This document shows, in pieces, positions 7,798 through 52,405 of a stretch of 64,000 nt of DNA. Source of the DNA: Chiloscyllium plagiosum (lineage: Eukaryota). The notes under the pieces are model-generated. The model ran no database searches. It saw nothing but the letters and a program-made list of their open reading frames with translations, and was not told where the DNA came from. The DNA lies in NCBI RefSeq assembly GCF_004010195.1, contig NC_057718.1, positions 82,152,458 through 82,216,457 of the forward strand, read 5' to 3'. The position numbers and the translations under genes are program-made. The number at the start of each line of letters is the position of its first letter. The first letter of the stretch is position 1.

Positions 7798-8214
7798 CAT
7801 GAAACAGTGCTTGGGGAGGCATGACATCAGGAATGAGGTCTGCCTCAGACAAGAGACTAGGAGTAGCTGAATGAGATAGTGGGGTACCAGGAGCTGAAAA
7901 ATCCAGTGAGGGGGATGGAGAGGGGCTAGTAAGTGGAGTCCGATCTGAAGAGCTCAGGGAGGAAAAGTCGATTACTTCTCCTTTTTCCAGGATCAGTTCT
8001 GACCTACGAGTTCGGCTGCAGAACTTTACTGGGGTTGATGACGTGCTCCTGTCAATGAATGTAGCAGCTTCCTTTTGAGCACGCCGAATGTCCTTAGCTT
8101 CCTGAGTCCGGGATCGTTTCTCTTTTAATTCCATAGCTGTTTCTACAGGGTTCCGACTCACTCGTTTTCGAAGTCCTTCCACTGTAATAATTGGATCCAA
8201 AGGAGGCTTGACAG
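7798..8214 (-). CDS. KAT14: KAT14 coding exon 5 (417 nt); the gene continues beyond the left edge and the GNAT domain is not in the window
   Basis: Acceptor CTTTTCAG|, encodes (A)VKPPLDPIITVEGLRKR...SPSPSPSLDFSAPGTP...DVMPPQALFH, donor G|GTAAGA. Phase 1 to 1. Confidence 0.95.
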
Positions 8215-11238: not shown

Positions 11239-11420
11239 CTCTTGCCTTCAGTGTTGTGCTCGATGGCCTCTCTCCTTCTGGCCTCATGACAGGAGGCTTG
11301 TTATGGACCAGTTTCCACCAGCCTGGTTCACCAAACTGCTGAGCACCCGATCGGAAATACATGGGGCTTCCCACAGAGAGGCAGCCTGCCACAGTGCTCC
11401 ACCAGGTTGAAGTCTTTTTC
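11239..11420 (-). CDS. KAT14: KAT14 coding exon 4 (182 nt)
   Basis: Acceptor GTTTTAG|, encodes KKTSTWWSTVAGCLSVGSPMYFRSGAQQFGEPGWWKLVHNKPP...LKAR, donor G|GTGAGC. Phase 2 to 1. Confidence 0.95.
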
Positions 11421-14563: not shown

Positions 14564-14685
14564 CTGCTTCCCAATAAGAAAGCCCAGTGTTTGTCAATAA
14601 AAGCACAAATATCTTCCTTCCAGCGAAAGTAACCTTGGCGACCAGTTCCTTCCAATGATAGATTGTACATGGCCAACATCACAAC
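14564..14685 (-). CDS. KAT14: KAT14 coding exon 3 (122 nt)
   Basis: Acceptor TTTTTCAG|, encodes VVMLAMYNLSLEGTGRQGYFRWKEDICAFIDKHWAFLLGS(R), donor AG|GTAAAA. Phase 0 to 2. Confidence 0.95.
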
Positions 14686-20767: not shown

Positions 20768-20889
20768 TTGTTGCCACGTGAGCTTCAGTCTCTCAAAGTG
20801 GTCCTTCCCGTCTTCCGCACAGTCTGAACAAGTGAATCGAAAGAAGTTATCACCCCGCAAGTAACTAGGATGTTCTGCCCTTAGCTGAG
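20768..20889 (-). CDS. KAT14: KAT14 coding exon 2 (122 nt)
   Basis: Acceptor CTCTGCAG|, encodes (T)QLRAEHPSYLRGDNFFRFTCSDCAEDGKDHFERLKLTWQQ, donor CAA|GTACGT. Phase 1 to 0. Confidence 0.95.
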
Positions 20890-30985: not shown

Positions 30986-31384
30986 AGTCTATTAAGACTC
31001 CTTCCCAGAGGAAGCCAGACCTACTGAGTTTCACCAACATTTTGTCTTTTAATTTAGGATCTCCAGTATTTTGGTCTTCTATTGACAATCAAAACTGGAG
31101 GCTAATACTGCATCTAATCTACAAATAGATTTATTTTGTCTTTTGGTGTTACTTATGGATATGATTAAATTTTCATAATCCTATTTTTTAAAAAGTGCAT
31201 TTTGAATGTACAAAACACATTACCATAAGCAGTTCTAATGCCTTTCATTTTTTACTGAATTCTACCACATAAGATCAATTTTCCACTGTAATTTTGAGAA
31301 AAGTTTTGGACATTAAAGCAATTCCATTATTTTAGTCTAACAAAAAGTACCACTGTTTCACTATTTCAGGAGTAAAATACATAC

Positions 31385-31652
31385 TTGCAGGTATCCATTT
31401 CTGGCATTTGTCACAGTAATACGACATCTCTTCCATCCAGGATGCTTCCCCTTCATCACCTAACTCACTGTTCAAAGAATCTCCACTGTGATCGTGGGAC
31501 AGATCTACCGAAGCCTGATCTTCTGACTCAACTATTAGTAAGGTTTCCCCTTCAACTTCTCCTTCCTCCAAGCCTTCAGAGGCAGTCATTCGTGCACATT
31601 CATCCTCCATTTGGCGAGCAGTTAAGCTTTTTGTCTCTTCATTATCATCCAT
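31385..31652 (-). CDS. KAT14: KAT14/CSRP2BP first coding segment (89 codons + 1 nt)
   Basis: Strong Kozak context AAG-ATG-G. Encodes SEGLEEGEVEGETLLIVESEDQASVDLSHD...YCDKCQKWIPA, recognisable as the KAT14 N-terminus. Donor A|GTATGT, phase 1. Confidence 0.95.
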
Positions 31653-31729
31653 CTTCCCAAACCCCTGGCAAAGCTTACACTAGAAAGAGTCAATGGCTAG
31701 AACATCACAGCAGTCACCCAAATAGCAGC

Positions 31730-31735
31730 TTTATT
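31730..31735 (-). terminator. Candidate polyadenylation signal between PET117 and KAT14
   Basis: AATAAA about 130 nt after the PET117 stop, followed by GU-rich TTTGGGTG..TGTGATGTT. Confidence 0.45.
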
Positions 31736-31864
31736 CTTTATAAGTTAAATAATACTAAGATGTGTTTTTCTAGAATTATGGTGGGTAAAAATATCTGTCA
31801 TCTATAAAACATCCAAAGTCATCACTGCTCATTTAAAGAAATGAGGCAATTGCTTTTCAGACTG

Positions 31865-32011
31865 TTAAGAGCTTCCCGGTGTCAATGAACTTTGCTGACG
31901 TCGATCTGCTTCCAATTTCTTTGTCAGACTAATCTGTTCCTCCAAAATTCGAAGATTCTCCTTTTTGCGTGCCTGTCGTTCAAGGTCTCTGAAAACTCCT
32001 TCTCTCAACCT
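31865..32011 (-). CDS. PET117: PET117 coding exon 2 (aa 33-80 plus stop)
   Basis: Acceptor TTTTTCTTTCCATAG| then RLREGVFRDLERQARKKENLRILEEQISLTKKLEADRRQQSSLTPGSS*, with TAA at 31867-31865. It matches the PET117 motif RLRxGVxRDxERQxRKKEN. It is absent from the ORF track because it has no ATG of its own. Confidence 0.95.
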   Translation of the reverse strand, partial: RLREGVFRDLERQARKKENLRILEEQISLTKKLEADRRQQSSLTPGSS

Positions 32012-32555
32012 CTATGGAAAGAAAAAAAAGATTTAGCTTCTTTTAAAAACTCAGCTAGTGATCAACACAAAAGTTACATGAATTTGCGCAACATTACTGT
32101 GCAACTTTAAAGATGCACATCCTAATCATCCAAGTGACTGGAAGTTCAAACGCAGAAGCAAAAAAAAATGTGATTTTCCAATTGAAGACCTTAATAAGAG
32201 CTGAGATAGTTTAACCAATTGAAATGTTGCCAAATACAAGACCTATATCATGTTTCGTGTTAACCTGTGTGTGGAGGTTTATCAAAAGCTGATCCTAAAG
32301 AACACCATCTCAATCACATCACATCAGCCTTTAAAATGTGAGATTCTAGATTCAAGTACTAAATATTCCTCAAGCGTCCATTCGTCTTCCAAAAATGCAG
32401 TAAGTATAATAAGTAGTTGAACTGCTTATCAGTTTAACTTTCTAGCAGTTACAGCAGGAGTCCATCTAGAGTTATTAATTTTTAAACTAAAATGATGGAG
32501 CAGGTACTTCACTGGGCCACGTCTGTAATGTTAATCTTAGAAAAGAACCAACTCC

Positions 32556-34938
32556 ATAGGTCTACTAATAATATTAGAAGAGTATTAAACATGGCCCAGG
32601 TATGCCAGCAAGGGTCGATTCCGGGCTTGGTAGTCTCCCTGGATGCAGAGAAAACGTTTGGCCAGGTGGAGTGGCTGTACCTCTTATGTACTGGAGGAGT
32701 TTGGTCTTCGAGGGTCTTTTTGCCAGGTGGGTGGCAGCGGTTCTCACTAATGGTATAAGGTCGGATAATTTTAGTATCAGCAGAGGCAGCCAACAAGGGG
32801 TGCCCTCTCTCGCTGCTATTATTTACATTGGTGATTGAGCCGCTCGCCGACGCCATCCAGAGGAACCCCAACATAATTGCTCCGGAGGTAGGGTTAGGGA
32901 GGCATATGATCATCCTGACGCAGATGACGTTCTTCTCTTTTTAACTGATCTTATGACATTTGTGCTCAATTTAATAGAAGGGATTAATCTATTTGGTTTG
33001 TTTTCGGGGTATAAAATTAACTTTATGAAGTCAGAGGCTATGACTGTGTGGGGGGAGGGCTTTACTAGAATATACAATCTTGGGAATGGAACCAGTTTCC
33101 CTTTCAGGTGGTCATAGAGTGGTCACAGGTAAGTTTCTTGTATGCAGACATTTTTATCACCCCAGCCTTTGATCAATTATATAAAGCTAATTTTGTGCAG
33201 TTGCTACAAAAGATAAGGCAGGACCTTCGGCACTTCCGATATCTTGGTTGAGTAGAATAGCTCTGGTCAAAATGAATATTCTTCTTCACATCTTATATCC
33301 CATGCGAATGCTCCCTTTGATGCTGCCTAGGCAAGCACTACGGAGGCTTGACAGTTGGCTTGGATCTTTTATCTGGCATCATAGGCGGCCTCTTATTAAG
33401 CTGGCCAAACTGCAGCTTCCGCATGGGAATGGGAAGTTTGAAATTCCTGGATTTTAAGAAATGTCAATCGAGTTCCTTACTATCCGATGTGACTGACTGG
33501 GCTTGCCAGGCTCTGTGGTCAATCTGACTGGACATAGAAATCTCCCAGGCAAAATGCCCCTCATCTATTTACTGTTATGGACCATTGTATAAACCCAATT
33601 GTTCTTAACACGGTTAAAGCATGGACAATGATACGATAAGGTGAGGGCAACTAACAAAAACTTCCCCTTTCACTCCCATAGTAGGAATGTTAGGATTCCA
33701 TCTGGGGCTGATGGACTCTGGCTTTAAGCTCTGGCAGTTTAGAGGAGTCTCTTGTTTGGGAAATTTATTTGATAGGGAGGTCATAATGTCTTTCAAGCAG
33801 CTGAGTCAGAAATATGAGTTATCTAGGAGGAACCTTTTTCGTTACTAACAGGTTAGGCACTTTATACAGAAAAAGATGACATTGATGGTTAGTCCCTATA
33901 AGTCTGATATGGAGAGGAGAGTGCTTCAGTCTACAGGCGCTCTCTCCATCAGCACCCTCTATCACTTGTTAAGAGGCAATGTTTCAAAGGATACTGAGCA
34001 GCTATGTGGAATCTGGACTCAAGAATGGGTGTAGAAATCTCAGAGGGATGGGAGGATATTTGGTAGAACATAAGAAAGATTTTGATTTGTAACGGGATGC
34101 AGGCTATGCAATTGAAGGAACTCCACAGGGCTCATTTGGCACAGGGGCAGCTTGTAAAATTTAAGACTGCAGCGACCCAATGTGCCCCAAATGTAAAACA
34201 GATGTTGGTATTCTTACTCATTGTTTGTGATCATGCCAAAAGCTTCATAGGTATTGGGGTACCACCGCGAGTGTTTTGGAAGAGGTTACTGAGGTTAAGG
34301 TGGATCCAGTGTCCCTCCTTTTGGGCTTGCCAAATCTCCCTTCTTTGGACACATGAGAAGAAACTGTTTAATATTATTTCATTCTGGAGAGGGAGAAACA
34401 TTCTAATGAGCTGGGTGTCAGAGAATCCTCCAGAACTCCCGGGATGGTGTAGATTAGTCATGGAGCACATCCCCCGGGATTTCCTTACAAGTATGGTGCT
34501 CCAGAATATGGAACTGTTTGACAGAACATGGCAGCCCTTTCTGAATTATATAGATGCAGACTTGTCGGCTATATTGGTCAGGGACTTTGTGTAGTCATGA
34601 GGACTATGTCTGGTGGTCGGGGGGGCCCTGTGAGGAAGAATCCCAAATAAATACGGGTTTGCCTACTGATGCTCCCGGTGGTGGGGAGCTTTGGTGGGAT
34701 TGCGCTGAGTGTAGTAACTTAACTGAATGTAATTTAATTTACATTGGTTTAACTTGGTTTAATTTAGCTTTTTTTAGTTATTTATTGAATTGTAGTTTTT
34801 GTAGGTTTTTTTCCCTCTCACCTCAGTGGTTTGTGGAGTAGAGTAGTAGTTTGGTTACTGTTACTGTCGTTATACTATAATGTTGTTTTACTATTTTGTA
34901 GTGATTTTGTAATTTTGTAAAAATATTTACAGAAAAAC
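32556..34938 (+). mobile_element. 5'-truncated L1-clade LINE (decayed ORF2 RT, C-terminal Cys region, 3' UTR), antisense to the gene
   Basis: SLDAEKxF, RGSQQGCPL and SRIALVKMNIL motifs with frameshifts, an A-rich tail, and perfect TSD AAAAGAACCAACTCC at 32541-32555 and 34939-34953. Confidence 0.85.
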
Positions 34939-34999
34939 AAAAGAACCAACTCCTCTGTTGCATCTTTTCAATGGCAGTCAGGAATCCACAATCCACTAA

Positions 35000-35594
35000 G
35001 TATAGGGGTTGGGAGGTCATAATGCAACTGTAAAAGACCTTGGTTAGGCCACTACTGGAATACCGCCTGAAATTCTGGTCTCACTCCTATAGGAAGGATG
35101 TTGTGAAACTTGAAAGGGCTCAGAAAAGATCTACAAAGATATTGCCAAGGTTGAAGGGTTTGAGCTATAGGGAGAAGCTGAGTAAATCAGGGCTATTTTC
35201 CCTGGAGCATCGGAGACTAAGGGGTGACCTTATGGAGGTTTGTAAAATCATGACAAGCACGGATAGAGTAAATAGACAAGGTCTTTTCCCAGGAGTAAGG
35301 AAATCCAAAACTAGAGGGCATAGGTTTAGGGGGAGAGGGGAAAGATTTAAAAGGAACCTAAAAGACACTTTTTTCACACAAAGGGTTGCTCTTGTATGGA
35401 ATGAGCTGACAGAAGAAGTGATGGAGGCTTGGTACAATGACAACATTTGAAAGGCATCTAGATGGGTATATGAATAGGAAGGGTTTAGAGGGATATGTGT
35501 CAAATGCTGGCAAACAGGACTAGATTTATTTAGGATATCTGGTCGGCATGGATGAATTGGACTGAAGGGTCTGTTTCTGTGCTCTGACTCTATG
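35000..35594 (+). mobile_element. CR1 3' end
   Basis: VRPLLEY..FWS..YRKDVVKLERAQKR..FSLEHRRLRGDL plus 3' UTR. Confidence 0.9.
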
Positions 35595-36975
35595 TGTGTT
35601 GAGCCACATGTATATTAAAGTTTCACATTCCTGAAAGTGCCAACAAGAAACAGAAAGTGATGGTGCAAGAGTGTAACATCAGGTACAGTATTAACCAGAC
35701 AAGTAGTACAAACCCAGTGTTAGAACTCTTGGCACATTCTATAATGATCTTAGCTGGTTTACTTTCCACTGATCATTCTTGCTTTTTCCATAAACAAGGC
35801 CCCCTTGATCGAAAAACAGTCTACATCTCAATATCAAGCATCACTAGCAACAGAACTCCTCAGTTAGTATGTTGGGTGCACTTTTTAGCCAAGTAATGAT
35901 TATTACAAAGTCAATTTTGGAACTTCTTTAACATAAGTTTCTAGCTTTCCTTGTGAGGTATTATCTAAGCTGAGATACTGCCTGTTTCTCTCTCCCATTC
36001 CCTATCTTAAAGCAAAGAAAAAGGACCAACCACTCAGAGGTAACAAAGTTATCTGAGCCAGACAACTAAAGAGAATAGATTGGATATAACACAGAAAAAA
36101 ATGAAACATCACACCACCATGGAGAGAAAGGATTATGAATTATCAACAGGAGGAAAGAGAAAATTGATGAAGACAAAACTGAACGATGGAGTCCAGAGCA
36201 AGCAGCTACATTGACGGAAACTTTAAAGCATTAATGGCTGCTAGAATGACCGGAAGAGAAGGAAGGGAGGTAAAAGTTAGAAGATTGAGAGGGAAGACAA
36301 GATAAGATGTCAGAAAGAGCAGTAGAATGGGGTATAATGGAAGAGACAATGTTGTGACAAGAAAGAAAGGAAAGGAGAGGTGCCATGACTGCTGATTTTT
36401 AGGATTCTAAAGGAACTGCCAAAGTCTGATGAGGAAAGGGCAACAACATATCGTTAATATTGCAACTTTTATGACATCTAATTTTACAACTCTGACATCA
36501 AAGCACCTTTCACAATTTAACATTAAGCAGCACAGCTGAGCAGGCTTGACTGCACAATGAAACCCAAAATAACCAAAAGGTTTCGTTAAACGATAGGTAA
36601 TATAGGCAAGTTGTAGATGTTTGTTCACACACAAAACTCCAATCAAAAAGGTGTTAGCCATTAGATAGAAAGAAATGTAAAAGAGTGAAGGGAAGAACCT
36701 TTCAAAGCAGGAAAATGTCATTTCAGACTGTAATTTGATTCTACTCCAAGGAACATACAAGATTATAGAGAGTTTATTTTAAATAAAAAAAGAAATATAC
36801 TAGAGCAGTACTACATTTTGTTGCCAACGCAATTCATTACTGGAAGTTCCAACACAACCATAATAGTAATATGAAAAACCGTGCCAAGAAACTCTTGCTT
36901 CAAAAATTATACACAATGTATCAGAAAGCAAAATCATTTGCAATTTTTTTTATCAGAGGGTTATCCAGTGTATTA

Positions 36976-37193
36976 GGAGAAAGTGAGAACTGCAGATGCT
37001 GGAGACCAGAGTTGAAAAATGTGGTGCTGGAAAAACACAGCAGGCCAGGCATCATCCGAGGAGCAGGAGAATTGGCGTTTCGGGCATAAGCCCTTGATTC
37101 CTGAAGACGGGCTTATGCCCGAAACGCCGATTCTCCTGCTCCTCGGATGATGCCTGGCCTGCTGTGGTTTTCGAGCACCTCATTTTTCAATAG
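36976..37193. mobile_element. Fold-back PLE-terminus element
   Basis: Same family. TSD CCAGTGTATTA at 36965-36975 and 37194-37204. Confidence 0.8.
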
Positions 37194-37947
37194 CCAGTGT
37201 ATTACTCCATTAACTTGTTAATCAATACCATGGGACACAAAGATAGCATGCAAACAACTTGATGGTGCATGCACAATCTGTCACAACTATCTGCAACATT
37301 ATGCCAGGGTGGAGGTCACAGGAATGCAGTTAAGGAACATGAAGGTGACTCTGGGATAATCTTGACCAAAGTGGCCAAGCACTGACTTTCACTAATGAAG
37401 TCTCTCAACATGTACATATGACAACAGCACTCACAAATTGGCAATGCCAAACATGTTCAGCTCAGGAGTTTTAAAAGAGTCTATCCTGCAGACAATGATT
37501 CTTGTATTGATAATTATGCAGCAGAATCACAAGATTATATATTCATTTTAGCAACAGGTCATTTTAATGAAAGTATCCTAATTTATCTGGAAAAAATGGC
37601 GAAGACCAAAACAATACAAGATCACAAGTCATCCTTCACTGGAATCAATTTTTCTCATCATGCAATGGCTTCAAAGGGAAAAATCCATATTGAACAGTAC
37701 AATAGTAGAAGAAACTCTGGACTATGCCAGCCCTCTTACACCAATAAAAAAGGAGGAACTGTTGCCAAAGTTAGTCAAGAAATCCATTTTTATACACTGG
37801 ATCATAACATAATGTTGACAGAAACTGCAATGTTACAGGTAATCAATCAGCTGTTAGTTAAAAGCTATTGAGCTAACTAAAAGCAAATGCTTACATTTGA
37901 GGCTAATTTTATTTGGGCTTTGACAATGCAACATTTAAAAATTCTGT

Positions 37948-38674
37948 GATTTTTGAGAAGATTTGTAGCTCAGGTTGAGGTTCGGGTTGTAAGTTTGCTT
38001 GCTGTGCTGGAAGGTTTGTTTACAGATGTTTCGTCACCATATTAGGTAACATCGTCAGTGAGCCTCCAGTGAAGCACTGATGTTATGTCCTGCTTTCTAT
38101 TTGTGTCTTGGTCTCTTAAGCTGGATGATATTTCCAGTTCTTTTTCTCAGAGATTGGTAATTGGGGTCCAAATTTGTGTGTTTCTTGATGGAGTTCCAGT
38201 TTGAATGTCAGGTCTCGAGGAATTCCTGTGTGTCTCTCTGTTTAGCCTATCCTAGGATGGATGTGTTGTCCCAATCAAAGTGGTGTCCTTCTTCGTCTGT
38301 ATGGAAGGATACTAGTGATAGTGGGTCATGCCTTTTGGTGGCTAGTTGATGTTTGTGTATCCTGGTGTCTGCCTGTCTGTCCAATGTAGTGTGTGTTACA
38401 GTTCTTGCATGGTATTGTGTAAATGACATTTGTTTTGCTGGTTTGTTTTGTATAAGATTCTTTAGTTCATCAGCCGCTGTTTAAATGTGTTGGTAGCCCC
38501 ATTTACCAACCTCTGAGAAAAAGAACCGGAAATGATATCACCCACCTTAAGAGACGAGACACAAACAGAAAGTGGGACACAACACCAGCATTTCATCAAA
38601 GGCTCACTGATGATGTAATCAAGCATGGTGACGAAAACAAACCTTCCAGCTCAGCGAGCAAACTTACAACCTGA
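37948..38674 (-). mobile_element. Penelope-like element: inverted pseudo-LTRs plus GIY-YIG C-terminal remnant
   Basis: TRIHKHQLATKRHDPLSLVSFHTDEEGHHFDWDNTSILG on the minus strand. Arms are homologous to 3541-4039. 15-bp TSD with 2 mismatches (37933-37947 / 38675-38689). Confidence 0.8.
38025..38058 (-). ncRNA. Hammerhead motif, slightly decayed (GTTACC/GGTRAC family)
   Basis: CTGACGA-T-GTTACC-taatat-GGTGAC-GAAA-CA-T-C. Relatives with core mutations occur at 3582-3615(-), 3929-3962(+) and 38607-38636(+). Confidence 0.6.
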
Positions 38675-39674
38675 ATTTGAGAATTCTGTTTATGGAGCAT
38701 TTGGTAGCATTCAAATTAGGATGGCCAAGAGTACTACCTATACAAGGGGAAAATAAAAGATGTACATGGAGTACTGAACTCACTTTCAAAGCCACATTTC
38801 ACTCTTCAGCAATTGTCCTCCATTCCATTTTACTCTGTGTGGATCCCAACCTAAATTCCACCCTTACGATTTCACATTCACTCATGATTATGTCTTCAAT
38901 ATATTCAGTGTTGCACTGTTTTGTCTGCATCCAGAGATCCACATTCAATGGCACCACCATATGCACATTCTTGACCTCTCTTCAACAGTACTGATTGTTC
39001 CCATTCACCAGCAATCTGTTCTACAGGATGAACTTGTTTGCACATTTTCGTTAATTCTATCACTTCTTCCAAGTGTAAAGTTCTGCTATGGGGGCATATA
39101 TTGATCTTAGCTATGCCTGCATTTCAATTGGTTATGTAGAACATTCTTTGTTCCAAAGCAAAAACAGAAATTGCTGGAGAAACTCAGCAGGTTTGGCAGA
39201 ACTGAATGGTCACCAGACTTGAAACATTAACACTTTTTCTTCCCACAAATGCTGCCAGACCTACTGAGTTTCTCCAGCAAATTCTGTTTCTGTTTCAGAT
39301 CTCCAGTATTCACAGTTCTTTGTTTTAATTCTACTGAATTCCCCTTCCTTACTTATTTAATAGTAACGACTGCATCAATGCCACTTGCTGGTCTTATCCT
39401 GAACCGGGAAATTTCATTTTTAATTTTTATATTTCTGTCACCCTCACATGATGAGTCTCCACTTCTTTCCTTCCCTTCCTTGACATCTCCACTTCTAGTG
39501 ATAGCTATCGACTAATATACACACGTCGACTGACTCCCCTGACTACACTTCCTTTTTTCCTCAGCTGAGGATCTTATCATCAGCAATCATTCATTAGTGA
39601 GTATGACTGTCTACCAAAGAGTCTGTCACTGGGCATGGGCTCCGCGGGTCCGCATGTAGCTGATAGACCCAGGT

Positions 39675-39678
<4 letters not shown>

Positions 39679-39714
<36 letters not shown>

Positions 39715-39763
39715 AAGCACACGAGAGAGAAAGAAAACGAGAGAGAGAGAGAGAGAGAGAGAG
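39679..39763. repeat. Interrupted (GA)n microsatellite
   Basis: Two pure GA runs separated by a degenerate purine spacer. Confidence 0.95.
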
Positions 39764-39949
39764 ACTGCACCTGCATCGTTGTGCCTGTCACATCAAACGG
39801 CTTGCACACTTGTCTTCTGGCCAGCCGTGGGCATGTACGTCACTTGATGCTTAGGCTCTGCATCTCCTGCAGCTCTGTCCTCGAACCCCACCCCCATAAA
39901 CCACAACAAAGATATAATTCCCGTCCTCACATTCCACTCCACTAATCTC

Positions 39950-40400
39950 CAAATCCAGCCGATTATCCTCCACCATTTTCACAAAGTTTAGCCAAACCTC
40001 ATCACTAAAAATATATTTCCCTCCCCACCCAATTTGCATTTCGTAGGGACAATTCTCTCTATGACTGCCTTGTTAGGTCCAAACCCCTCACCAACCACAT
40101 CTCCACATCTGGCACCTTCCCCTGCTGCTGTAAGAGGTGCAAAACCTGCACCCACACCTCCATTCAAGGTGCTGAAGGATCATTCCACATCTGGCAGAGA
40201 TCTACTTGCAATACCATCGAACCTCATTTACTGCATCCATTGCTCTCGATGTAGTCTCCTCTACACTGGAGAGACTGAGCGCAAACTCACAGAGTGGTTC
40301 AGGGAACATCTCTGGTCTGTACGTATCAACCAACCTCATCTTCCTGCAGCCATCCATTTTAACTTCCCCTTCCACTATCCCCACGACATGTCCATTCTGA
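39950..40400 (+). mobile_element. Penelope-like GIY-YIG endonuclease fragment
   Basis: SNLIYCIHCSRCSLLYTGETERKLTEWFREHL...AIHFN fits the IY-x-YxGET..R..EH pattern. A more decayed relative lies at about 12330-12940. Confidence 0.7.
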
Positions 40401-41720
40401 GCACTTTATCGGTCCAAAGGCAGCACTTAGATTGTGGAGATTCATCTTGTCCATGGATGTCAGCCCTAGAGGGAGCTTCCCAGGTAAAATTAATAGTCCA
40501 AGTTTTGGAGGATTTCTCTATCGATCTTAGTGACAGGACGATCTGGGACAGACTGGTAAAGGCTTTGCATCTTCTTGAGTCTGAAACCAATTCTTTGATA
40601 TGTTTCGACAAGGACATTAAAGGAGGCCTGAAGATTCTCTTCAACAAGAGCAGAAATGACATTGTCGTCCACATATTGAAGTCCGACAAGTGAAGTCAGT
40701 GACGTTCTGTCCTTGAATTTCAACCAGCTGATGTCTCCGCACAACAAAGATCATCCTGGGCTCCCAACTAGTTGCCATTAGACACAGAGTAGAAAAGCAG
40801 CAAACGTAGATGTGATTCCAGCAGAGCTTTTCAAACTTAAGAGGAGCAGAGGTTACCTGTCAGCTCCAAATGTTTTGAAAATCCCAGACAAAGAAGAAAT
40901 CACTGCTGATCTCAGGGATGCTACCATCATCACTGTCTTCATGAATATCCACACCACTGGGAAACTTGTTCTTGACAAGTAGAATGGTGATACATGCAGA
41001 TGGAGAAAACGGTGAGGCAATGACACATCCTGCTTGACCTCAAAGGTTTCTGTCATATTACCATTATTGAGGACTGTTGCCAACATCACAGTGTCGAAGA
41101 GACTGAGGATATTGATCAGATTCATTAGTTCTTGATTCAAACAGTTCACAAAAAAGCTCAACATTAAGTAGCTTCAAGAACCAAGCAGAACTTCTAACAA
41201 TGCCTTCACCAACATTTCCAAAAGGTTAACTTAAATGGAGTGGAGGAAATCTGGAAAAAGCTGAAATTGGCCATCACCTCATGCTGCGAAGAGACCAGAC
41301 GACACAAAGACTAGTTTGATGAAAATGTCCACATAATCCAAGATCTCATCAACAAGAAGGGGACGGCTCTCCATGCCTGGTATAACAACATCGCCACTGA
41401 GGCAAAGAGGACCTGATCAAGTGTATCCTAGGACATTGTGGAAAGTTAGGGAAGAAATTGTAGGGCCCCTAGCATAAATATTTGTATCATCTATAACCAC
41501 GGGTGAGGTGCCAGAGGACTGGAGAGTGGCTAATGTTATTCCTTTATTTAAGAAAGGCTGTAAAGAGAAGCCTGGGATCTACAGACCTGTGAACCTAGCA
41601 TCAGTGGTGGATAAGCTGTTGGAGGTGAATCGGAAAGAGAGACAGAGAGAGAGAGAGAGAAAGGCAGAGTTACAAAGTAGAATCAAAGAAACCAAGAACC
41701 AATGATGGATGCGAATCTAT
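40400..41720. mobile_element. Fragmented RTE-clade LINE, pieces in both orientations
   Basis: Minus strand: LQYVDD..EENLQ..QRIGFRL and NGNMTETFEVK. Plus strand: DLRDATIITVF and HKD*FDEN. Confidence 0.6.
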
Positions 41721-44550
41721 CCTACATTGGTTGACAGAGACCACAATCTTATTTGGAATAAGGCAAATTTTAATGGTTTGAGACAAGAACTTTTAAAGGT
41801 CGATTGGATCCCTTCGCAGATAACGGGATGACTGACAAATGGGAGACTTTCAAAAGTGTGTTAATGAGAGTTCATTTGGATTATGTTCCTGCTAGAATGA
41901 AGGGGAAGGCTAGTAAAAGTCAAGAACTACAAATGAATAAAGATATTCAGGTTCTAATCAAGAAGAAGAAAGAATCATATATTAGATATAAACAACTGAG
42001 ATTAAGTGAATCACTTGATGAGTATGAAGAGTATAACGGCAGCTTTAAGAGGGAAATCAGGAGGGCAAAGAGGATATATGAGATAGCCTTGTCAGATAAG
42101 GTTACGGGGAAATAAATATTGATGTTTTGAAAACAGTTCACATTACAGAACAGGTCTTAAAAAACATAAATCTCTGGGACCTGATCAAGTGTATTCTAGG
42201 ACATTGTGGGAAGTTAGGGAAGAAATTGTAGGGCCCCTAGCATAAATATTTGTATCATCTATAACCACAGGTGAGGTACCGAAGGACTGGAGAGTGGCCA
42301 ATATTATTCCTTTATTTAAGAAAGGCTGTAAAGAGAAGCTTGGGAACTACAGACCTGTGAACCCAACATCAGTGGTGGATAAGCTGTTGGAGGTGAATCA
42401 GAGAGGGGGAGGGAGAGGGAGAGGGACTGCAAAGAGAACGGTTTCAAAATTGTCAACAAAAGCACAATTAGCTTATTAAAATCTAGGGAAGTTTGAAATC
42501 AATGAGGAGATGTCCTACTTGCAAATGAATGAATAATCTCTATCTTAAGGCTACATGGATGCAGGAGCTGCTCAAGGGGAAACTACAGCAGATTCTATTG
42601 TCTATTATTGTTCAATATAAATCTGATATAATACAAGGGATAGTATCTAACTCCCTGTTTAAAATATTCCAACTTTGTGAATGTGATGAAAATGCATCAG
42701 CTGTGGATTTGCCAATCTCAAGAATGTCTTTCTTTTGGGCATGAATGGACAGCCAGTTAGTGTAGAGATGAGGGATTACTTCTCAAAAGTAGTGAATCTA
42801 TGGAATTATTTACCAAAACGCTGTAGAGGCAGTGTCATTAAGTACAAATTTAAGGCTGAAATTGATCACTGGGGAAATCAAGGTTATAGGGAAATGGTAG
42901 GAACATGGCCATTAGGAGGGTCAGATCAGCCATGATCCAACTTCATCAATGGCTTATTCCTGTTCCTATTTCTTATGGTCTTATAATCAAGGTCAAGGTA
43001 GATGGATTTTTAATCAAGAAATGAATTAAGGGTTGTAGGCTTAAAAAAACAGGAAAATGGAGTTGAAGAATATCAGATCAGCCACGTTCTTACTGAATGA
43101 TGAGCAGGCTCAATGGGCTGAAACGTTCCACTTCTGTTACTACATCTTAGTCTTATATATGTAGAAGTTATTTTGAAATAAACTTTTATTTACTTATGCC
43201 TGTTGTTTTATGTCAATTTATTTCCTGTAGATTATAGGAAATAAATCATAACATGTGCAAAGATTTAAAGTTTAATGGGGTTTTGATAATTATGTAGGAT
43301 ATTGATAAATTCTTCTAATTCTGCTTTGAAGAAAGCTCAAGTACATCAAGAAAAGAGAATACTTAATGTCACCACATGACTGCACTGAACAAAGGAACTG
43401 TTGAGAATGAAAAAGTATTCCCTGAAATTTGAAAGAAGCCATAAAAGTGTCCTGTGCCAAATGATTAGAGAATTGCTGGTGTTGCATCATTATTTAAAAG
43501 ATAATTTAAATAATAAAAATAAAGTCAGCAACAATAATTCAGAAAAAAACTAAATTACACAAGTTACATAAAGTAAAGACACAACAAAAATTTATTAAAG
43601 GCAAAAATCAGGTAAACTAACCTGTTTTTGGTGAAGTTATAGAAAGTTCATGAGGGTAATTGAGGGTACAAAAGACTTCAAAATACATTTAATTGGAGTG
43701 TCACACAATGAGCTTGTTAGTAAAGTCAATAATGAATTACAAGAACAACAACATATACGCAACATTCGCTAGGTGACAACAGAGTACTGCTGTAGATAAT
43801 TTAAAACACTTGTTCATGTGTGTTTTAGATTAGAGCACTTGAGTGTAATGGGGTTCCCCAGTGATTGGATACCGTTTGTTTATATATTTTAATGACCATG
43901 AATTGGGGGCACAGAATAGAGTTTCAAAATTTGCAGATTTACTCAAGGTACGTTCTTTAAAGAGAAAAAAAATTGTTCTCTGACAAGGTACCAAGAGAAC
44001 ACTAATTTAAAGGAGCTGGTAACAGAATCAAAGGCAACTTTAGGGTCTTGTGGGGGCCGATCAAATGCGGTTTTCAAAAGAGCATCCGAATGATAACAAA
44101 GGGGAAAAGGGACGGGGAAGCGTAAATAGGTAATTTTTTTCCGGGTGTGATGGACTTTAATATAAAACGGTAATATTGTGTGTGCTGGTGGTTGTTTGTG
44201 GTACGCAGGCGTACACGCGGTGCTGGCAGTTGCTGCAGTCCAGGCCTGATGGAGACGGGAGGCCCAGAGCCGCTGGCGAAAGGCGCCAGGAGACAACGCG
44301 GGGCCACACGCGCCATCCCCTTCACACCGTCACGTGCTCCAACCGTCGCCTCACGAGCCGGTGGGGTTTCGGCTCAAAATCCCGCTGCGAACGAAGCGCC
44401 CTCCCACACCTCAAAGCCCGCATCCTGAAGGGGGTTGGGGGTGTCCACGACTGGGATCAAACTTCAAGCTCCAGTCCGAGGCTGCGTCTGGCCTCGAACC
44501 CCTCGCCCCGCTCTCATTTTAGCGGCTCGAATGCCGTTTGAAATACCCAC

Positions 44551-44646
44551 CTCCCTGTCCAGATGCTGCTTAAAATGGACCCCGGCCACCGTCCCTACTG
44601 TCAGCACCACGGAAACACCGAAAACCGCCTTAGACACTGTCGACAT
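44551..44646 (-). CDS. PET117: PET117 coding exon 1 (aa 1-32, hydrophobic/TM segment)
   Basis: ATG at 44646 gives MSTVSKAVFGVSVVLTVGTVAGVHFKQHLDRE, then donor GAG|GTGGGT (phase 0). It closely resembles the vertebrate PET117 N-terminus (..VLLTAATVAGVHVKQ..) and lies in the CpG island. Confidence 0.95.
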
Positions 44647-44670
44647 TCTGCGGCCTGGAAATCCCGGCCC

Positions 44671-44684
44671 GTCACCATGGAGAC
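44671..44684. promoter_or_regulatory. RFX X-box-like motif, copy 1
   Basis: GTCACCATGGAGAC, a near-palindrome fitting GTYNCCATGGNRAC, about 25 bp upstream of the PET117 ATG. Confidence 0.6.
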
Positions 44685-44788
44685 CGAGACCCCATCAGCC
44701 GAACGCCGAGGACGAGATTCCAGGCGTGAACGGCCGAGTGAAGAAAAGGAGCTGGGCAGAGGGGAAGGTCCAACTGAAAGGAAACACC

Positions 44789-44802
44789 GTCACCATGGAG
44801 AC
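44789..44802. promoter_or_regulatory. RFX X-box-like motif, copy 2
   Basis: Identical GTCACCATGGAGAC 118 bp from copy 1. Confidence 0.6.
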
Positions 44803-45519
44803 CCTGGAGCGCGCCAAGAGTCAGATCTGACTTTGACCACACCTGAGAGCAGACGGACAAAGTCTGAAGCTTCCTTTGATTCTGATTTTGTAATCCTGAG
44901 GAAGAGCCTGTTTCGTATTTGACACAACATTCGGCTGAGAGGTCGATGTTTTTTTTTTAAACTTAGATTATACCGATGTAGTAACGGGGAACTTGGAAAA
45001 TTACAATTCGACTCTACAAAACCATCATGGCGTAATGACAGGGAAATGTATTTGACATTTAAACATTTTTAAGGGTGCAACTGGCTCTGCAGACTTGTTT
45101 TAAAATTGTGGAATATTTATTTTTGCAGAAGGCATTCAATAAAACATTAATGTCGCACGAAATAAATACACAAGATAGGGGTCATGGAATTGTGGTTTCG
45201 TTCAGAATCAGAATATACGGAGGGGACACGAGGTGGCAAAATAATTTAAAGAAGCTTCAAAAGGATTTCAACCAGTTAAGTGGGCGAAATAGCAATTGAG
45301 CAATTTTGATTGGAAGAATGAATAAGCAGAATATTTTTAAAAGCAACTAATTAATGAATGTTGGCATAAGCAACGACATTTTAAGATTGTACAAATTACA
45401 GTGTAAATATGCAATTATAGAGAACAATAAGGAAGGCAAATTACATGTAATTTCAAGCAGGAGAGGTGGCACGTATGGGGAAGGAAGTCTTGTTGCAGTT
45501 TTCTTAAGGATATGAGCAT

Positions 45520-46830: not shown

Positions 46831-47273
46831 CAGTAAACTTTGCATGGTCAGGAAGTAGAGATCACATCTAGAGTGAGACACAGCCTGAGTGAGTACATAA
46901 TTAGGGAATTTGGTGCAGAGGGGAAAAGATGCTTTTTGCTTGTTTATTTTGAGTCAATTTCTAACTTTTTTTAACCAGGATAAATTGAAGCCCAGGAATG
47001 GGCCCAGCACTTGAGTGACACCACAGATAGTCCATAAACTCATTGGTGATAATTACTAATTTGTCTATGGAAATATTTACAAGGTACAAATTGAAAGACC
47101 TGTATGAATTTTTTTTAATCAAATTAAGAGCTAACTAATTAAAATAGAGATACTGAGCTAGATAATGTGTAGTAACTGCAAGATTATGGTCACTGGCCCC
47201 AAAGTGCTCCCCCACTGACACCTCAGTCACCTGCCCTGCCTTATTTCCCAAGAGTAGGTCAAGTTTTGCACTT

Positions 47274-47458
47274 NNNNNNNNNNNNNNNNNNNNNNNNNNN
47301 NNNNNNNNNNNNNNNNNNNNNNNNNNNNNNNNNNNNNNNNNNNNNNNNNNNNNNNNNNNNNNNNNNNNNNNNNNNNNNNNNNNNNNNNNNNNNNNNNNNN
47401 NNNNNNNNNNNNNNNNNNNNNNNNNNNNNNNNNNNNNNNNNNNNNNNNNNNNNNNNNN
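47274..47458. other. Assembly gap
   Basis: Run of N. Confidence 1.
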
Positions 47459-48642
47459 CTCCACCACCACCCTGTGTCTTCTACCTTTGAGCCAGTTCTG
47501 TATCCAAATGGCTAGTTCTCCCTGTATTCCATGAGATCTAACCTTGCTAATCAGTCTCCTATGGGGAACCTTGTCGAACGCCTTACTGAAGTCCATATAG
47601 ATCACATCTACTGCTCTGCCCTCATCAATCCTCTTTGTTACCTCTTCAAAAAACTCAATCAAGTTTGTAAGACATGATTTCCCATGCATAAAGCCATGTT
47701 GACTATCCCTAATCAGCCCTTGCTTTTCCAAATACATGTTTATCCTGACCTTTAGGATTCCCTCCAACAACTTGCCCACCACCGACATCAGGTTCACCGG
47801 TCTATAGTTCCCTGGCCTGAACTTACCACTTTTCCTAAACAGTGGCACCACGTTAGCCAACCTCCAGTTTTCCGGCACCTCACCTGTGACTATCGACGGT
47901 ACAAATATCTCAGTAAGAGGCCCCACAATCACTTCCCTAGCATCCCACAGCGTTCAAGGGTACACCTGATCAGGTCCTGGGGATTTATCCACTTTTATGC
48001 CTTACAAGATATCCAGCACTTCCTCCTCTGTAATATGGACAGTTTGCAAGATGCCACCATCTATTTCCCTACGTTCTATATCTTCCATGTCCTTTTCCAC
48101 AGTAAATACTGATGCAAAAAAATTGTTTAGTAACTGCCCCATCTCCTGCAGCTCCACACAAAGGCCGCCTTGCTGATCTTTGAGGGCCCTATTCTCTCCC
48201 TCATTACCCTTTGGTCCTTTGTGTTTGTAAAAGCCCTTTGGATTCTCCTTAACTCTATTTGCCAAAGCTATCTCATGTCTCCTTTTTGCCCTCCTGGTTT
48301 CTCTCTTAAGTGTATTTCTACTGCCATTATAGTGTTCTAAGGATTCACTCAATCTCTCCTGTCTATACCTGATATATGCTTCCTTCTTTTTCTTAACCCA
48401 GCCCTCAATTTCTTTAGTCATCCAGCATTCCCTATAACTACCAGCCTTCCCTTTCACCCTAACAGGAATCTACTTTCTCTGGACTCTCGTTATCTCAGTT
48501 CTGAAGGCTTCCCATTTTCCTGCTGTCCCTTTACCTGCAAACATCTGTGCCCAATTAGCTTTTGAAAGTTCTTGGCCTTTCTCCAATTTAGAACTTTAGA
48601 TTTTCGATCTGGTCTATCCTTTACCATCACTATTTTAAAACT

Positions 48643-48807
48643 TCACCTGATGAATTGCCTTCACAATCACAAAACTCCACAATCACCTGATGAAGGAGCG
48701 TCGCTCCGAAAGCTAGTGTGCTTCGAATTAAACTGTTGGACTATAACCTGGTGTTGTGTGATTTTTAACTTTGTACACCCCAGTCCAACACCGGCATCTC
48801 CAAATCA
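48643..48807 (+). mobile_element. Short hammerhead-bearing (PLE-type) insertion inside a CR1
   Basis: TSD TATTTTAAAACT at 48631-48642 and 48808-48819. It contains the intact hammerhead and interrupts the CR1 reading frame. Confidence 0.75.
48684..48718 (+). ncRNA. Minimal type I hammerhead ribozyme motif, intact core
   Basis: cac-CTGATGA-A-GGAGC-gtc-GCTCC-GAAA-GC-T-A-gtg. Stem I cac/gtg, 5-bp stem II, palindromic AGCT in place of stem III. Predicted cleavage after A48715. Confidence 0.8.
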
Positions 48808-49461
48808 TATTTTAAAACTAATAGAGTTATGGTTGCTGTCCCCAAAGTGCTCCCCTCGAACACCTCAGTCACCTGCCCTGCGTTATTTCCCAAGAGTAGG
48901 TCAAGCTTTGCACCTTCTCTAGTAGGTACATCCACATACCGAATCAGAAGATTTTCTTGTACACACTTAACAAATTCCTCTACATCTAAACCCTTAACAC
49001 TATGGCAGTCCCAGTCTATGTTTGGAAAGTTAAAATCCCCTACCATAACCACCCTATTATTCTTATAGATAACCGTAATGTAATCTTACAAATTTGTTTC
49101 TCACTTTTCCTCTGACTACTGGGGGATCTATAGTACAATCCCAATAAGATGATCATCCCTTTCTTATTTCTCAGTTCCACCCAAATAACTTCCCTGGATG
49201 TATTTCTGGGAATATCCTCCCTAAGTACAGCAGTAATGCTATCCCTTATCAAAAATGCCACTCCCCCTCCTCTCTTGCCTCCCTTTCTATCCTTCCTGTA
49301 GCATTTGTATCCTGGAACATTAAGCTGCCAGTCCTGCCCATCCCTGAGCCATGTTTCCGTAATTGCTATGATATCCCAGTCCCATGTTCCAAACCATGCC
49401 CTGAGTTCATCTGCCCTCCGTGTTAGGCCCCTTGCATTGAAATGAATGCAGTTTAATTTAT

Positions 49462-49706
49462 NNNNNNNNNNNNNNNNNNNNNNNNNNNNNNNNNNNNNNN
49501 NNNNNNNNNNNNNNNNNNNNNNNNNNNNNNNNNNNNNNNNNNNNNNNNNNNNNNNNNNNNNNNNNNNNNNNNNNNNNNNNNNNNNNNNNNNNNNNNNNNN
49601 NNNNNNNNNNNNNNNNNNNNNNNNNNNNNNNNNNNNNNNNNNNNNNNNNNNNNNNNNNNNNNNNNNNNNNNNNNNNNNNNNNNNNNNNNNNNNNNNNNNN
49701 NNNNNN
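49462..49706. other. Assembly gap
   Basis: Run of N. Confidence 1.
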
Positions 49707-52405
49707 CGGGTCGGTGTGGACTTGTTGGGCCAAAGGACCTGTTTCCACACTGTAATGTAATGTAATGTAATCTAAAATCTCCCTGCCAGTATATTAGTCC
49801 CCTTCCAATTTAGTTGCAATCCGTCCTTCTTGTACAGGTCACTTCTAACCCAAAAGTGACCAAATCTGCAGTATGTGTTGGTTGCTCGAGGAACTGCAGC
49901 TCAGAGTTGATTACCTGCAGTCTGAGCTTTGAATAGGGTGAACAGTGTATATCAGGAGGCAGTCACACTCCTTAGAATTACTTCTATCAGTGGTCAGGGA
50001 CAGGAGGATGGGGTACAGGTGAGGCACGTAGAAGGATTCAGGAGGTAGCCTCAGCCCTTGAGCTTGTGTGGCATGAGTTGTGTGGTTGAGAGTGGAATTG
50101 TAGGGTGGATGAGCAAACTGAACATAGCATTGTGGTACAGAGAGCCATTCAAGAGGTGCGAGAAAATAGAAATGTAGTTATAATTGAGGATAATATAGTT
50201 GGGGGAATAGAAACTATTTTGTCACCAGATTTGAGAGTCCTGAAAGCTTTGTGGCTTGGTGCCATGGTTCAGGATGTCTCATCTGGGCTTGGAGTGGGAG
50301 AGAAAAGATCCAGTTGTCATGGTCTACGTAAATACCAACAATTACAGTAGAAAAAGGAAAGAGGTTATGAGCAGCTAGGGGCTAAATTTAAAAGAACCAA
50401 AAAGTTAACAACATCAGATTATTACTTGACCAACAAACTAGTTGATACAGAGTCAACAAGATTAAAGAGGTAAACATATAACTCAAGATTGGTGTGGGGA
50501 AAAGGGGTTCAAATTCTTGGGACATTGGCACCAGTAGTGGGAAGGAGGAAGCTTCACCTGAATCATGCTGGAACCAGTGTCCTGGCGAACTATGTAACTA
50601 GGGCTGTGGATCAGACTTTAAATTAAATAGTGGGGGGTAGATTCAGTTGCATTGAAAAGATTAAAAGGGCGGAGGGCTCAACAGAATTGCTCTGAGGAGG
50701 GGTCACTGGACCTGAAATGTTAACTCTGATTTCTCTTCACAGATGCTGCCAGACCTGCTGAGCTTTTGCAGCAATGTCTGTTTTTGTGCCTGATTTACGA
50801 CATTTGCAGTTCTTTAAGTTTTTATTTAGTAGGACACAGAGTATGGAAAGGGATCAGGAATCTAACTTCAGGCACAACAGATGAGGGGACAACTATGAGA
50901 AGGGGACTGTCAGTGTACGTAAGAGGATGTTGTATTTAAATGCATGCAGTATATAAAACAATGTAAATGACCTTGTAATGCAGATTGAAATTGGCATGTA
51001 CAAAGTTGTGGGTATCACAGACATGTGGCTGCAAGGGATCAAGAGCCAGAAAACATAGAACCTATTTGGGCAGAGTTGAGAAACTGCAATGGGAAAAAGA
51101 TCTTGATGGGAGTTGTGTACGCCTCCAAGCAGTAGTCAAGATGCGGGGAAGAAAATAAATCAAGATATGGAAAGGGCATGTAGGAAAGGCACAATTACAA
51201 TAATCATGGAGGAATTCAATATGCAGGTGGACTTGAAAAATCAAGTTGGTAATAGATCTCAAGAAAAGGAATTCATGGTTTTCTGGAGCAGCTTTTGGTA
51301 AAGTCCACTAGGGAACAGGCAATTCTTGGCATCGCAGACTTGATGAGGGAGCTTAAGGTGAAAGAACATCTAGGAAGCAGTGACCACAATATGAAAGAAT
51401 TCAGCCTACAGTTTGAGGAATGAACATTGAATCAACAAGAAAGACATGAGGGAGGAGCTGGAAAGGAAACCTAGCAGGAGTTTCTGGAGGTAATTTGGGA
51501 GGCACAACAGAAATTCATCAAAAAAGAAGAAACATACTGAGGGCTGAATGAGGCAACCATGGACAGCATAAAAGCAAAAGAAAAGCTTAGAATGTGGTGA
51601 AAATTAATGGGAAGCTGTTAAAAGCAGAAGGGGATAACTAAAATAGCAGTAAGGATGGACAAGATGAAATATGAGAGCAAGCTAGTTAGTAATATAAAAG
51701 AAGATTGCAAGATCTCTTAAAAAGTAGGAGAGAAGCAAGAGTGGACATTTCACCACTGGGAAATGAGGCTGGAGAAATAATAACAGGGAACAATGAAATG
51801 TCGGAAGAATTTAATAGGTATTTTGCATTGGTTTTCACAGTAGAAGATACCAGTAGCACACCACAGCTTCAAGAGCTAAGGTGCAGGGATGAGTGCACTG
51901 GCTCTCCCTAAAGAGCAGGTGCTGAGGAAGCTGGAAAGTCTGAATGTGAGTAAGTAAGTCACCTAGACCAGATGGACTACACTCCAGACTTCTGAAAGAG
52001 ATAGCTGAGGCAATTGTAAAGGTCTTGATGGTGATCTTTCAGGAATCACTGGAGTCAAGAAGAGTCCCAGAGGACTGGAAAATGGTTAATGTAATACCCC
52101 AGTTTAAGAAGAGAAGGATGCAGAAGGTTGAAAACTCTAGGTCAGTTAACCTGATCTCAGTCATTGGTAACATTTTAGAGCCTATTATTAAGATGAGATT
52201 GTAGAGTACTTGGAGGTGCAATGTAAAATAGGGCTGAGTCAACACTCCTTTCTATAGGAGAGGTCATGTCTGACAAATCTGCTAGAATTCTTTGAGGTAA
52301 TGAGCAAGTTACTGAAAAGCCAGTAGATGGGATTGATTTGATTTCCAGAAGGCCCTTGACAAGATGCCGCACAGGAGGCTGCTAAATGAGATAAGAGCCC
52401 ATAGT

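What the first reader, a model, noticed from the sequence alone, without database searches (positions are those of the whole stretch)
31385..44860. PET117-KAT14 bicistronic-type transcription unit in a shark
Seen: PET117 ends at 31865 and KAT14 starts at 31652 on the same strand, only 212 nt apart. No CpG island or obvious promoter lies between them, and the only clear island is at PET117 exon 1. The simplest model is one exon (32011-31385) carrying the PET117 3' CDS, the spacer and the KAT14 start. The PET117 CDS has no internal ATG in any frame, its start has a weaker context (AGA-ATG-T) than KAT14 (AAG-ATG-G), and the two ORFs are out of frame (212 mod 3 = 2). Known, from recall: human PET117 and KAT14 overlap and share 5' exons. 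Inference: the coupling of a mitochondrial complex IV assembly factor to a nuclear ATAC acetyltransferase on one mRNA predates the shark/bony-vertebrate split.
Basis: partly seen in the sequence, partly recalled or inferred. Interest (0 to 1): 0.75.

Follow-up and report, generated by a model that had tools for sequence, protein, structure and literature searches.

The report
Ancient two-protein mRNA with cut-off switch
In a bamboo shark, the genes for a mitochondrial assembly factor (PET117) and a chromatin enzyme (KAT14) share one exon and likely one messenger RNA, as already reported for humans, and a poly(A) site used between them yields a shorter RNA that likely makes PET117 alone.

Summary
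The finding is real and largely right; the human case is already in print. All coordinates hold. RNA contigs cover the shared exon and join it to PET117 exon 1 and the next KAT14 exon; one contig spans all three. Human PET117-KAT14 is one of 14 bicistronic pairs in Guo et al. 2026 (supplement, 179/195 long reads), but their evolutionary table omits it. A teleost contig (L001) has the same layout, so the unit likely predates the shark/bony-fish split.

The spacer holds an AATAAA that is used: 9 of 40 shark reads carry poly(A) tails at 31714-31716, giving a PET117-only RNA. The spacer also holds five ATGs, so simple leaky scanning is incomplete.

The frame offset is not conserved (2, 1, 0 in shark, teleost, human). 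Vertebrate PET117 avoids internal methionine, which fits leaky scanning. How KAT14 is translated is inferred, not shown. The scan had not noted this locus before.

The parts
44081..44920 (.). CpG island; likely the shared promoter
   Evidence: GC 0.57, 60 CpG, o/e 0.88; the only substantial island in the window. The start site itself is not mapped; a related shark's contig reaches about 44704 if colinear.
44787..44803 (-). 17-bp direct repeat, copy 1 (RFX X-box-like, label recalled); contains an ATG at 44796
44669..44685 (-). 17-bp direct repeat, copy 2; its ATG (44678) opens a 25-codon ORF overlapping the PET117 start out of frame
44551..44646 (-). PET117 CDS in exon 1 (96 nt, 32 codons, phase-0 donor)
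   Evidence: same 96 nt in L001 and human; joined to 32011 in contigs of X7 and X11
32012..44550 (-). intron 1 (12.5 kb)
   Evidence: GT..AG ends; absent from the X7 and X11 contigs; 62 nt of it kept in the X1 contig
31385..32011 (-). composite exon 2: PET117 3' CDS, spacer and first KAT14 coding segment
   Evidence: covered end to end by one contig in X11 and one in X1, and by two overlapping contigs in X7
31865..32011 (-). PET117 CDS in exon 2, ending in TAA
31653..31864 (-). 212-nt spacer with five short uORFs (18, 6, 4, 18, 2 codons), all closed 44-149 nt before the KAT14 ATG
   Evidence: arrangement not distinguishable from shuffles; 9 variable sites in the 5' half against 1 in the 3' half in two related sharks, p=0.02
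31730..31735 (-). AATAAA polyadenylation signal
   Evidence: unchanged in X7 and X11
31714..31716 (-). poly(A) cleavage site that gives a PET117-only RNA
   Evidence: 5 + 4 of 40 reads in run X19 carry poly(T) loose ends here; only 3 A in the next 20 genomic nt, so not internal priming
31665..31693 (-). candidate second 3' splice site (branch-like TTGAC, A at 31690; CAG ending 31665), in frame with the KAT14 ATG; not seen used
   Evidence: same geometry in L001 (24 against 25 nt); no joint or loose end here in 4 of 4 runs
31385..31652 (-). KAT14 (CSRP2BP) first coding segment, 268 nt, phase-1 donor
   Evidence: 100% identical to bamboo-shark KAT14 P0001
20768..20889 (-). KAT14 next exon (122 nt)
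   Evidence: loose ends at 31385 in X1, X7 and X11 map to 20860-20889
14564..14685 (-). KAT14 exon (122 nt)
11239..11420 (-). KAT14 exon (182 nt)
7798..8214 (-). KAT14 exon (417 nt); the remaining exons were not found in the window
   Evidence: five exons give 370/370 identity to P0001

Best explanation
PET117 and KAT14 share a composite second exon and likely one CpG-island promoter; RNA that runs past the spacer is spliced to KAT14 and likely forms a two-protein mRNA, while RNA cut and polyadenylated at 31714-31716 would encode PET117 alone, and KAT14 is likely made from the long RNA by ribosomes that slip past the PET117 start. Shown: the exon joins (contigs), the poly(A) site (raw reads), and the same layout in a teleost and in human. 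Inferred: (1) one molecule carries both complete ORFs in the shark; (2) leaking 40S subunits cross an ATG-free PET117 ORF, bypass or briefly translate the short spacer uORFs, and start at the strong KAT14 ATG; (3) the short RNA has no exon junction after the PET117 stop and would escape nonsense-mediated decay, whereas the long RNA would need KAT14 translation to do so; (4) the choice of poly(A) site sets the PET117:KAT14 ratio.
For:: one X11 contig spans 31385-32013, with loose ends matching exon 1 and KAT14 exon 20889 (mapped). In X7 the KAT14 contig (2649 nt, depth 29.3) reaches 31776, upstream of the poly(A) site, and overlaps an exon1-exon2 contig of depth 26.7. X19: 9 of 40 reads have poly(A) tails 14-16 nt after the end of the AATAAA; depth is 10-14 at 31710-31947 and 0.3-4.7 from there to the donor; all read pairs have the orientation expected of minus-strand RNA; human ENST00000688188 has both ORFs in 179/195 long reads, both PhyloCSF- and Ribo-seq-positive. 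L001 has a 96-nt exon 1 CDS, a 217-nt spacer and a phase-1 KAT14 donor. Gene models fuse the two ORFs in Albula glossodonta (P0100) and Alosa alosa (P0226), which implies adjacency there. KAT14 has the stronger start (+4 G) in shark and L001. Met avoidance: in ray-finned fish PET117, 1 of 44 substitution types at L/I/V columns is Met, against 22 of 129 in fish KAT14 (p=0.01). In residues 2-65, Met is 1 of 576 in nine vertebrate-clade representatives and 96 of 4480 in 70 others.
Against: Contigs are not molecules, and no shark long read was seen. The X1 contig (same organism label as the window's best holder) keeps 62 nt of intron 1 and shows no exon-1 join. The poly(A) site rests on 9 reads from about 2% of one run of one sample, and L001 has none of 12 tested poly(A) hexamers in its spacer. 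Spacer ATGs are not depleted (5 seen against about 4 expected in both species; one in L001 is in a strong context) and their layout matches shuffles, which is odd if scanning were under selection. The PET117 start has a -3 purine. 22 of 70 non-vertebrate-type PET117s are also Met-free over residues 2-65, and vertebrates are a single lineage. The human Ribo-seq call for PET117 was made on another transcript id, ENST00000377681.
Confidence: 0.72

Rival explanations
1. Same two RNAs, but KAT14 is made by re-initiation after ribosomes finish the 80-codon PET117 ORF, not by leaky scanning.
For: The PET117 start has a -3 purine in shark and L001, so many ribosomes would start there. A spacer of 212-303 nt is kept in three lineages and would give time to re-acquire factors (inference).
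Against: Re-initiation after ORFs this long is generally inefficient (recalled). It does not predict avoidance of internal Met. Human CSRP2BP translation falls normally under arsenite (TE fold 0.19, Z 0.04), unlike ATF4-type delayed re-initiation.
Confidence: 0.12
2. KAT14 protein comes mainly from a minor isoform that splices to a second acceptor at 31664 and so drops the PET117 3' CDS, the spacer ATGs and the poly(A) signal; the long RNA then mostly yields PET117.
For: A branch-like TTGAC and a CAG 24-25 nt apart sit 12 nt (shark) and 27 nt (L001) before the KAT14 ATG. Spacer similarity between the two species falls in this stretch (6 of 300 shuffles score as high), and the 3' half of the spacer is the conserved half among sharks. 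It would explain why spacer ATGs are not depleted.
Against: No joint or loose end at 31664 or 31679 in 4 of 4 runs (contigs drop rare forms). In the shark, exon 1 joined here would give an in-frame PET117(1-32)-KAT14 fusion, which none of the 15 listed (of 19) shark cluster members shows; in L001 a stop intervenes. 92% of human long reads hold both full ORFs.
Confidence: 0.1
3. KAT14 has its own start site in intron 1 or in exon 2, and the two genes merely overlap; unstranded contigs join separate RNAs.
For: The X1 contig begins in intron 1 at 32073 with no exon-1 join. A marginal CpG window lies at 32651-32930.
Against: That contig end carries adapter letters, as a fragment end would. The marginal window lies among short reverse-transcriptase-like ORF remnants (my reading, not searched). 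The X7 contigs on both sides have similar depth, and human long reads hold both ORFs.
Confidence: 0.06

Closest known systems
Human PET117-KAT14 transcript ENST00000688188 / NM_001392073 (Guo et al. 2026, PMC13303939, Dataset EV1)
   Same: Orthologous unit: 96-nt exon-1 CDS, PET117 3' CDS followed closely by the KAT14 start, and KAT14 exon sizes 259/119/122/182/417 against 268/122/122/182/417 here.
   Different: Spacer 303 nt (in frame) against 212 nt (out of frame). The main text never names the pair and has no occurrence of 'polyadenylation'. Its evolutionary table covers seven pairs and has no hit for PET117 or KAT14 names.
STREMI (SLC35A4-MP)-SLC35A4, MIURF-MIEF1, PYURF-PIGY, ASDURF-ASNSD1 (named in PMC13303939)
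   Same: A small conserved upstream protein shares an mRNA with an unrelated larger protein; STREMI is mitochondrial, and STREMI-SLC35A4 is also linked in cartilaginous fishes.
   Different: KAT14 is a multi-exon downstream ORF, not an intronless retrocopy like SLC35A4. Human KAT14 was not stress-resistant in Andreev et al. 2015, whereas SLC35A4 is stress-induced. Here a used poly(A) site can detach the downstream ORF.
Drosophila sloth1-sloth2 (PMC9681215, passages read)
   Same: Bicistronic mRNA with a small mitochondrial protein upstream, and a sub-optimal first start with an optimal second start; leaky scanning was supported by reporters.
   Different: There the spacer is 5 nt and both products are paralogous mitochondrial peptides; here the spacer is 212 nt with five uORFs and the proteins are unrelated.

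Membership tests
Vertebrate bicistronic mRNA (criteria of Guo et al. 2026) | Two non-overlapping ORFs, each a full-length conserved protein | tested here: met
   PF15786; KAT14 370/370 to P0001; homologs
Vertebrate bicistronic mRNA (criteria of Guo et al. 2026) | Both complete ORFs on single RNA molecules | tested here: inconclusive
   Contigs bridge exon 1, the shared exon and the next KAT14 exon, but no shark long reads were available; 179/195 long reads in human
Vertebrate bicistronic mRNA (criteria of Guo et al. 2026) | The two-ORF form is the predominant one | tested here: inconclusive
   Similar contig depth on both sides in X7 (26.7 and 29.3) points to predominance there; the 3'-type library X19 shows a PET117-only form but cannot give a ratio
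Vertebrate bicistronic mRNA (criteria of Guo et al. 2026) | Ribosome footprints on both ORFs | not testable with these tools
   No shark Ribo-seq; human scores 77 and 120
Vertebrate bicistronic mRNA (criteria of Guo et al. 2026) | Purifying selection on both ORFs | tested here: inconclusive
   Across X7 and X11, 4 of 6 distinct coding differences are silent: too few to test. Protein conservation across vertebrates is high.
Leaky-scanning bicistronic mRNA (sloth1-sloth2 type) | First start weaker than second | tested here: met
   +4 T against +4 G in shark and L001, though both starts have a -3 purine
Leaky-scanning bicistronic mRNA (sloth1-sloth2 type) | No ATG between the two starts | tested here: not met
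   None in the PET117 CDS, but five in the spacer in both species
Stress-induced uORF mRNAs (ATF4 / SLC35A4 type) | Downstream ORF resists eIF2 repression | tested here: not met
   For the human ortholog only: CSRP2BP TE fold change 0.19, Z 0.04 in PMC4383229 source data. Not testable in shark.
Retroposition-born bicistronic genes ('gene symbiosis') | Intronless downstream ORF | tested here: not met
   At least five KAT14 coding exons in the window

The most novel reading that the evidence does not exclude
PET117-KAT14 is a unit at least as old as jawed vertebrates in which a poly(A) site in the spacer works as a regulated switch: cutting there gives a stable PET117-only mRNA and silences the chromatin acetyltransferase, while read-through makes both. 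The need to let ribosomes through has purged methionine from most of vertebrate PET117, so a translation constraint has shaped a protein's sequence. PET117 disease variants and knock-downs would then also change KAT14.
Probability: 0.25. Interest if true: 0.68.

Novelty: new member of a known kind. Interest (0 to 1): 0.4.

Why it matters
It extends a barely studied human bicistronic gene back to the common ancestor of sharks and bony vertebrates, and adds a way to uncouple the two proteins (a poly(A) site between them). If the human locus behaves alike, work that targets PET117 exons, including the patient stop variant c.172C>T (PMC5429353, passages read), could also alter KAT14 output, and the reverse. 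It also poses a testable translation puzzle: how a ribosome reaches a start codon behind an 80-codon ORF and five uORFs.

Tried and rejected
Whole-genome search: none is held for this window. Run search: no RNA holder listed on record; X1, X7 and X11 are guessed to be RNA, and their spliced joins support that. Only 31200-32200 was laid, so exon-1 and start-site coverage were seen only as loose ends.

Out-of-frame spacing as a design feature: rejected (mod 3 = 2, 1, 0). ATG-free CDS as codon-level selection: rejected. Selected uORF layout in the spacer: not supported. Structured spacer or IRES-like element: the spacer folds worse than 199 of 200 shuffles (z +2.06). Global spacer alignment of shark and L001: uninformative. 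A real PET117-KAT14 fusion protein: 1 hit among 280 long candidates, one more model, and the A. goreensis model is unfused; read as gene-model artefacts.

The promoter scan is bacterial and irrelevant. The Atlas search only confirmed the PET117 family. The careful PET117 tree did not finish; only the quick tree was used. No complex prediction was run, since no binding is claimed.

Literature: ten searches. PET117+KAT14 gave 4 papers, PET117+CSRP2BP 2, PET117+bicistronic 3, Atac2+dicistronic 0, three of KAT14/CSRP2BP/uORF/bicistronic 0, PET117+ribosome profiling 8. No listing or passage read describes the shared transcript, apart from the Guo supplement. Most subscription papers are not searched. 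Four Guo zip archives were too large to read, one file was cut when stored, and figures are not held.
Full report
Observation. The minus strand carries PET117 in two exons (44646-44551 and 32011-31865), giving an 80-residue protein that matches Pfam PF15786. KAT14 starts at 31652, 212 nt after the stop. Five exons in the window translate to 370 residues identical to bamboo-shark KAT14 records (Chiloscyllium). The only substantial CpG island, 44081-44920, covers exon 1.

RNA evidence. I laid 4 of the 24 listed runs on 31200-32200 only. Three are assembled contigs guessed to be RNA. X11 (organism C) gives one contig across 31385-32013 whose loose ends map to exon 1 and to the KAT14 exon at 20889. 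X7 (organism B) gives an exon1-exon2 contig (depth 26.7) and a 2649-nt KAT14 contig (depth 29.3) that reaches 31776, upstream of the poly(A) site; the two overlap by 22 nt. X1 (organism A) covers the exon and the 20889 join, but extends 62 nt into intron 1 with no exon-1 join, which counts mildly against the model. Contigs show no single molecule.

The poly(A) site. X19 is a raw poly(A) single-cell run of organism A, about 2% read, 40 reads laid. Five reads have poly(T) loose ends at 31714 and four at 31716, 14-16 nt past the end of the AATAAA, where the genome has 3 A in the next 20 nt. Depth is 10-14 just upstream and 0.3-4.7 downstream. A PET117-only RNA therefore exists in this sample. A library of this kind cannot give its share. 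Of 20 partly laid reads, 11 are not accounted for by a listed loose end.

Conservation. Guo et al. 2026 (PMC13303939; I read the abstract, passages, sections 13 and 14, part 1 of Datasets EV1 and EV6, and supplement searches) list human PET117-KAT14 among 14 bicistronic pairs, with both ORFs in 179/195 long reads and Ribo-seq support. The human coordinates give a 96-nt exon-1 CDS and a 303-nt spacer. Their evolutionary table covers seven pairs and has no hit for this one. This locus, L001, resembles teleost proteins best and has the same layout with a 217-nt spacer. Gene models in Albula glossodonta and Alosa alosa fuse the two ORFs, implying adjacency. By parsimony the layout was present in the last common ancestor of jawed vertebrates; jawless fish and invertebrates could not be examined. 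The frame offset is 2, 1 and 0 in shark, L001 and human, so it is not a conserved feature. L001 has no tested poly(A) hexamer in its spacer, so the switch may be lineage-specific.

Mechanism of KAT14 translation (inferred). The KAT14 start has the better context in both species, though the PET117 start has a -3 purine (context rules recalled). The ATG-free PET117 CDS is dictated by the shark protein sequence, so the test has to be at protein level. Of 44 homologs found, the 40 of 69-91 residues hold 3 internal Met in 3191 residues. Among 38 full-length fish PET117s, 1 of 44 substitution types at L/I/V columns is Met, against 22 of 129 in 18 fish KAT14s that I picked (p=0.01). From 150 listed representatives (546 hits) I kept 79 with near-full matches. 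Nine form a clade with fish PET117 in a quick tree (labelled vertebrate by likeness, not by name) and have 1 Met in 576 residues over positions 2-65. The other 70 have 96 in 4480, spread over 27 columns; four of nine looked up are a sea star, a whelk, a coral and an annelid. But 22 of those 70 are Met-free too, and vertebrates are one lineage. This favours leaky scanning without proving it.

Against a clean scanning model, both spacers hold five ATGs, as many as chance gives, in a layout like that of shuffles. All five uORFs are short and closed before KAT14, so bypass or re-initiation after them is possible. A candidate second acceptor with the same branch-to-AG distance in shark and L001 could remove them, but it was not seen used. 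The human ortholog is not resistant to arsenite stress (one row of the source data of PMC4383229). By the recalled exon-junction rule, the long RNA would be exposed to nonsense-mediated decay at the PET117 stop and the short RNA would not; this is untested. Human PET117 mRNA is reported as a SYNJ2BP client at the mitochondrial surface (PMC8370977, passages); which isoform is not stated in those passages.

Comparison and verdict. This is the shark ortholog of a human bicistronic gene that is in print only as a supplement entry, as far as ten searches show. Passages of PMC5429353, PMC3334569, PMC3012649 and PMC4716680 do not mention the shared transcript. It fails the tests for the retroposed and stress-induced subtypes and one feature of the plain leaky-scanning type. 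New here: evidence in sharks and a teleost, a used poly(A) site in the spacer, and Met avoidance in vertebrate PET117. No functional link between complex IV assembly and KAT14 (ATAC membership recalled) was shown. Earlier findings of the scan had nothing on this locus. Interest 0.4.

Noticed in passing
window 31234-31384 (intron after the KAT14 donor): X19 reads cover this intron stretch at depth 3-5 and stop near an AGTAAA (31256) and an A-rich run: either a second, intronic poly(A) site for PET117 or internal priming on pre-mRNA. I recall the human PET117 reference mRNA ending in the matching intron; not checked.
   Followed up: partly
window 44669-44685 and 44787-44803: Perfect 17-bp direct repeat in the island, resembling an RFX X-box (label recalled); each copy holds an ATG.
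   Followed up: no
run X11, contig record 2 (5' of window 32013): The contig has 1052 nt upstream of exon 2, far more than exon 1 seems to offer; a longer leader or a divergent transcript joined in an unstranded assembly.
   Followed up: no
window 31385-31456, minus strand: Annotated 'X2' KAT14 isoforms of four shark and ray species (P0171, P0176, P0177, P0184) begin in another frame of the last 72 nt of the shared exon, and that 24-residue stretch is recognisably kept; probably frame-shifting downstream splices.
   Followed up: partly
L001 2333-2344: A consensus-like splice donor lies 6 nt before the teleost KAT14 ATG; its use would skip the KAT14 start.
   Followed up: no
P0100 (Albula glossodonta), P0226 (Alosa alosa): Public gene models wrongly or unusually fuse PET117 to KAT14.
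   Followed up: partly
window 31761: T/C difference in 8 of 14 X19 reads, with C in both related sharks; likely a polymorphism.
   Followed up: no
window 605-2686, 32486-33457, 47135-49771: Broken ORFs that look like LINE reverse-transcriptase and endonuclease remnants (my reading, not searched); 1221 N in the window.
   Followed up: no
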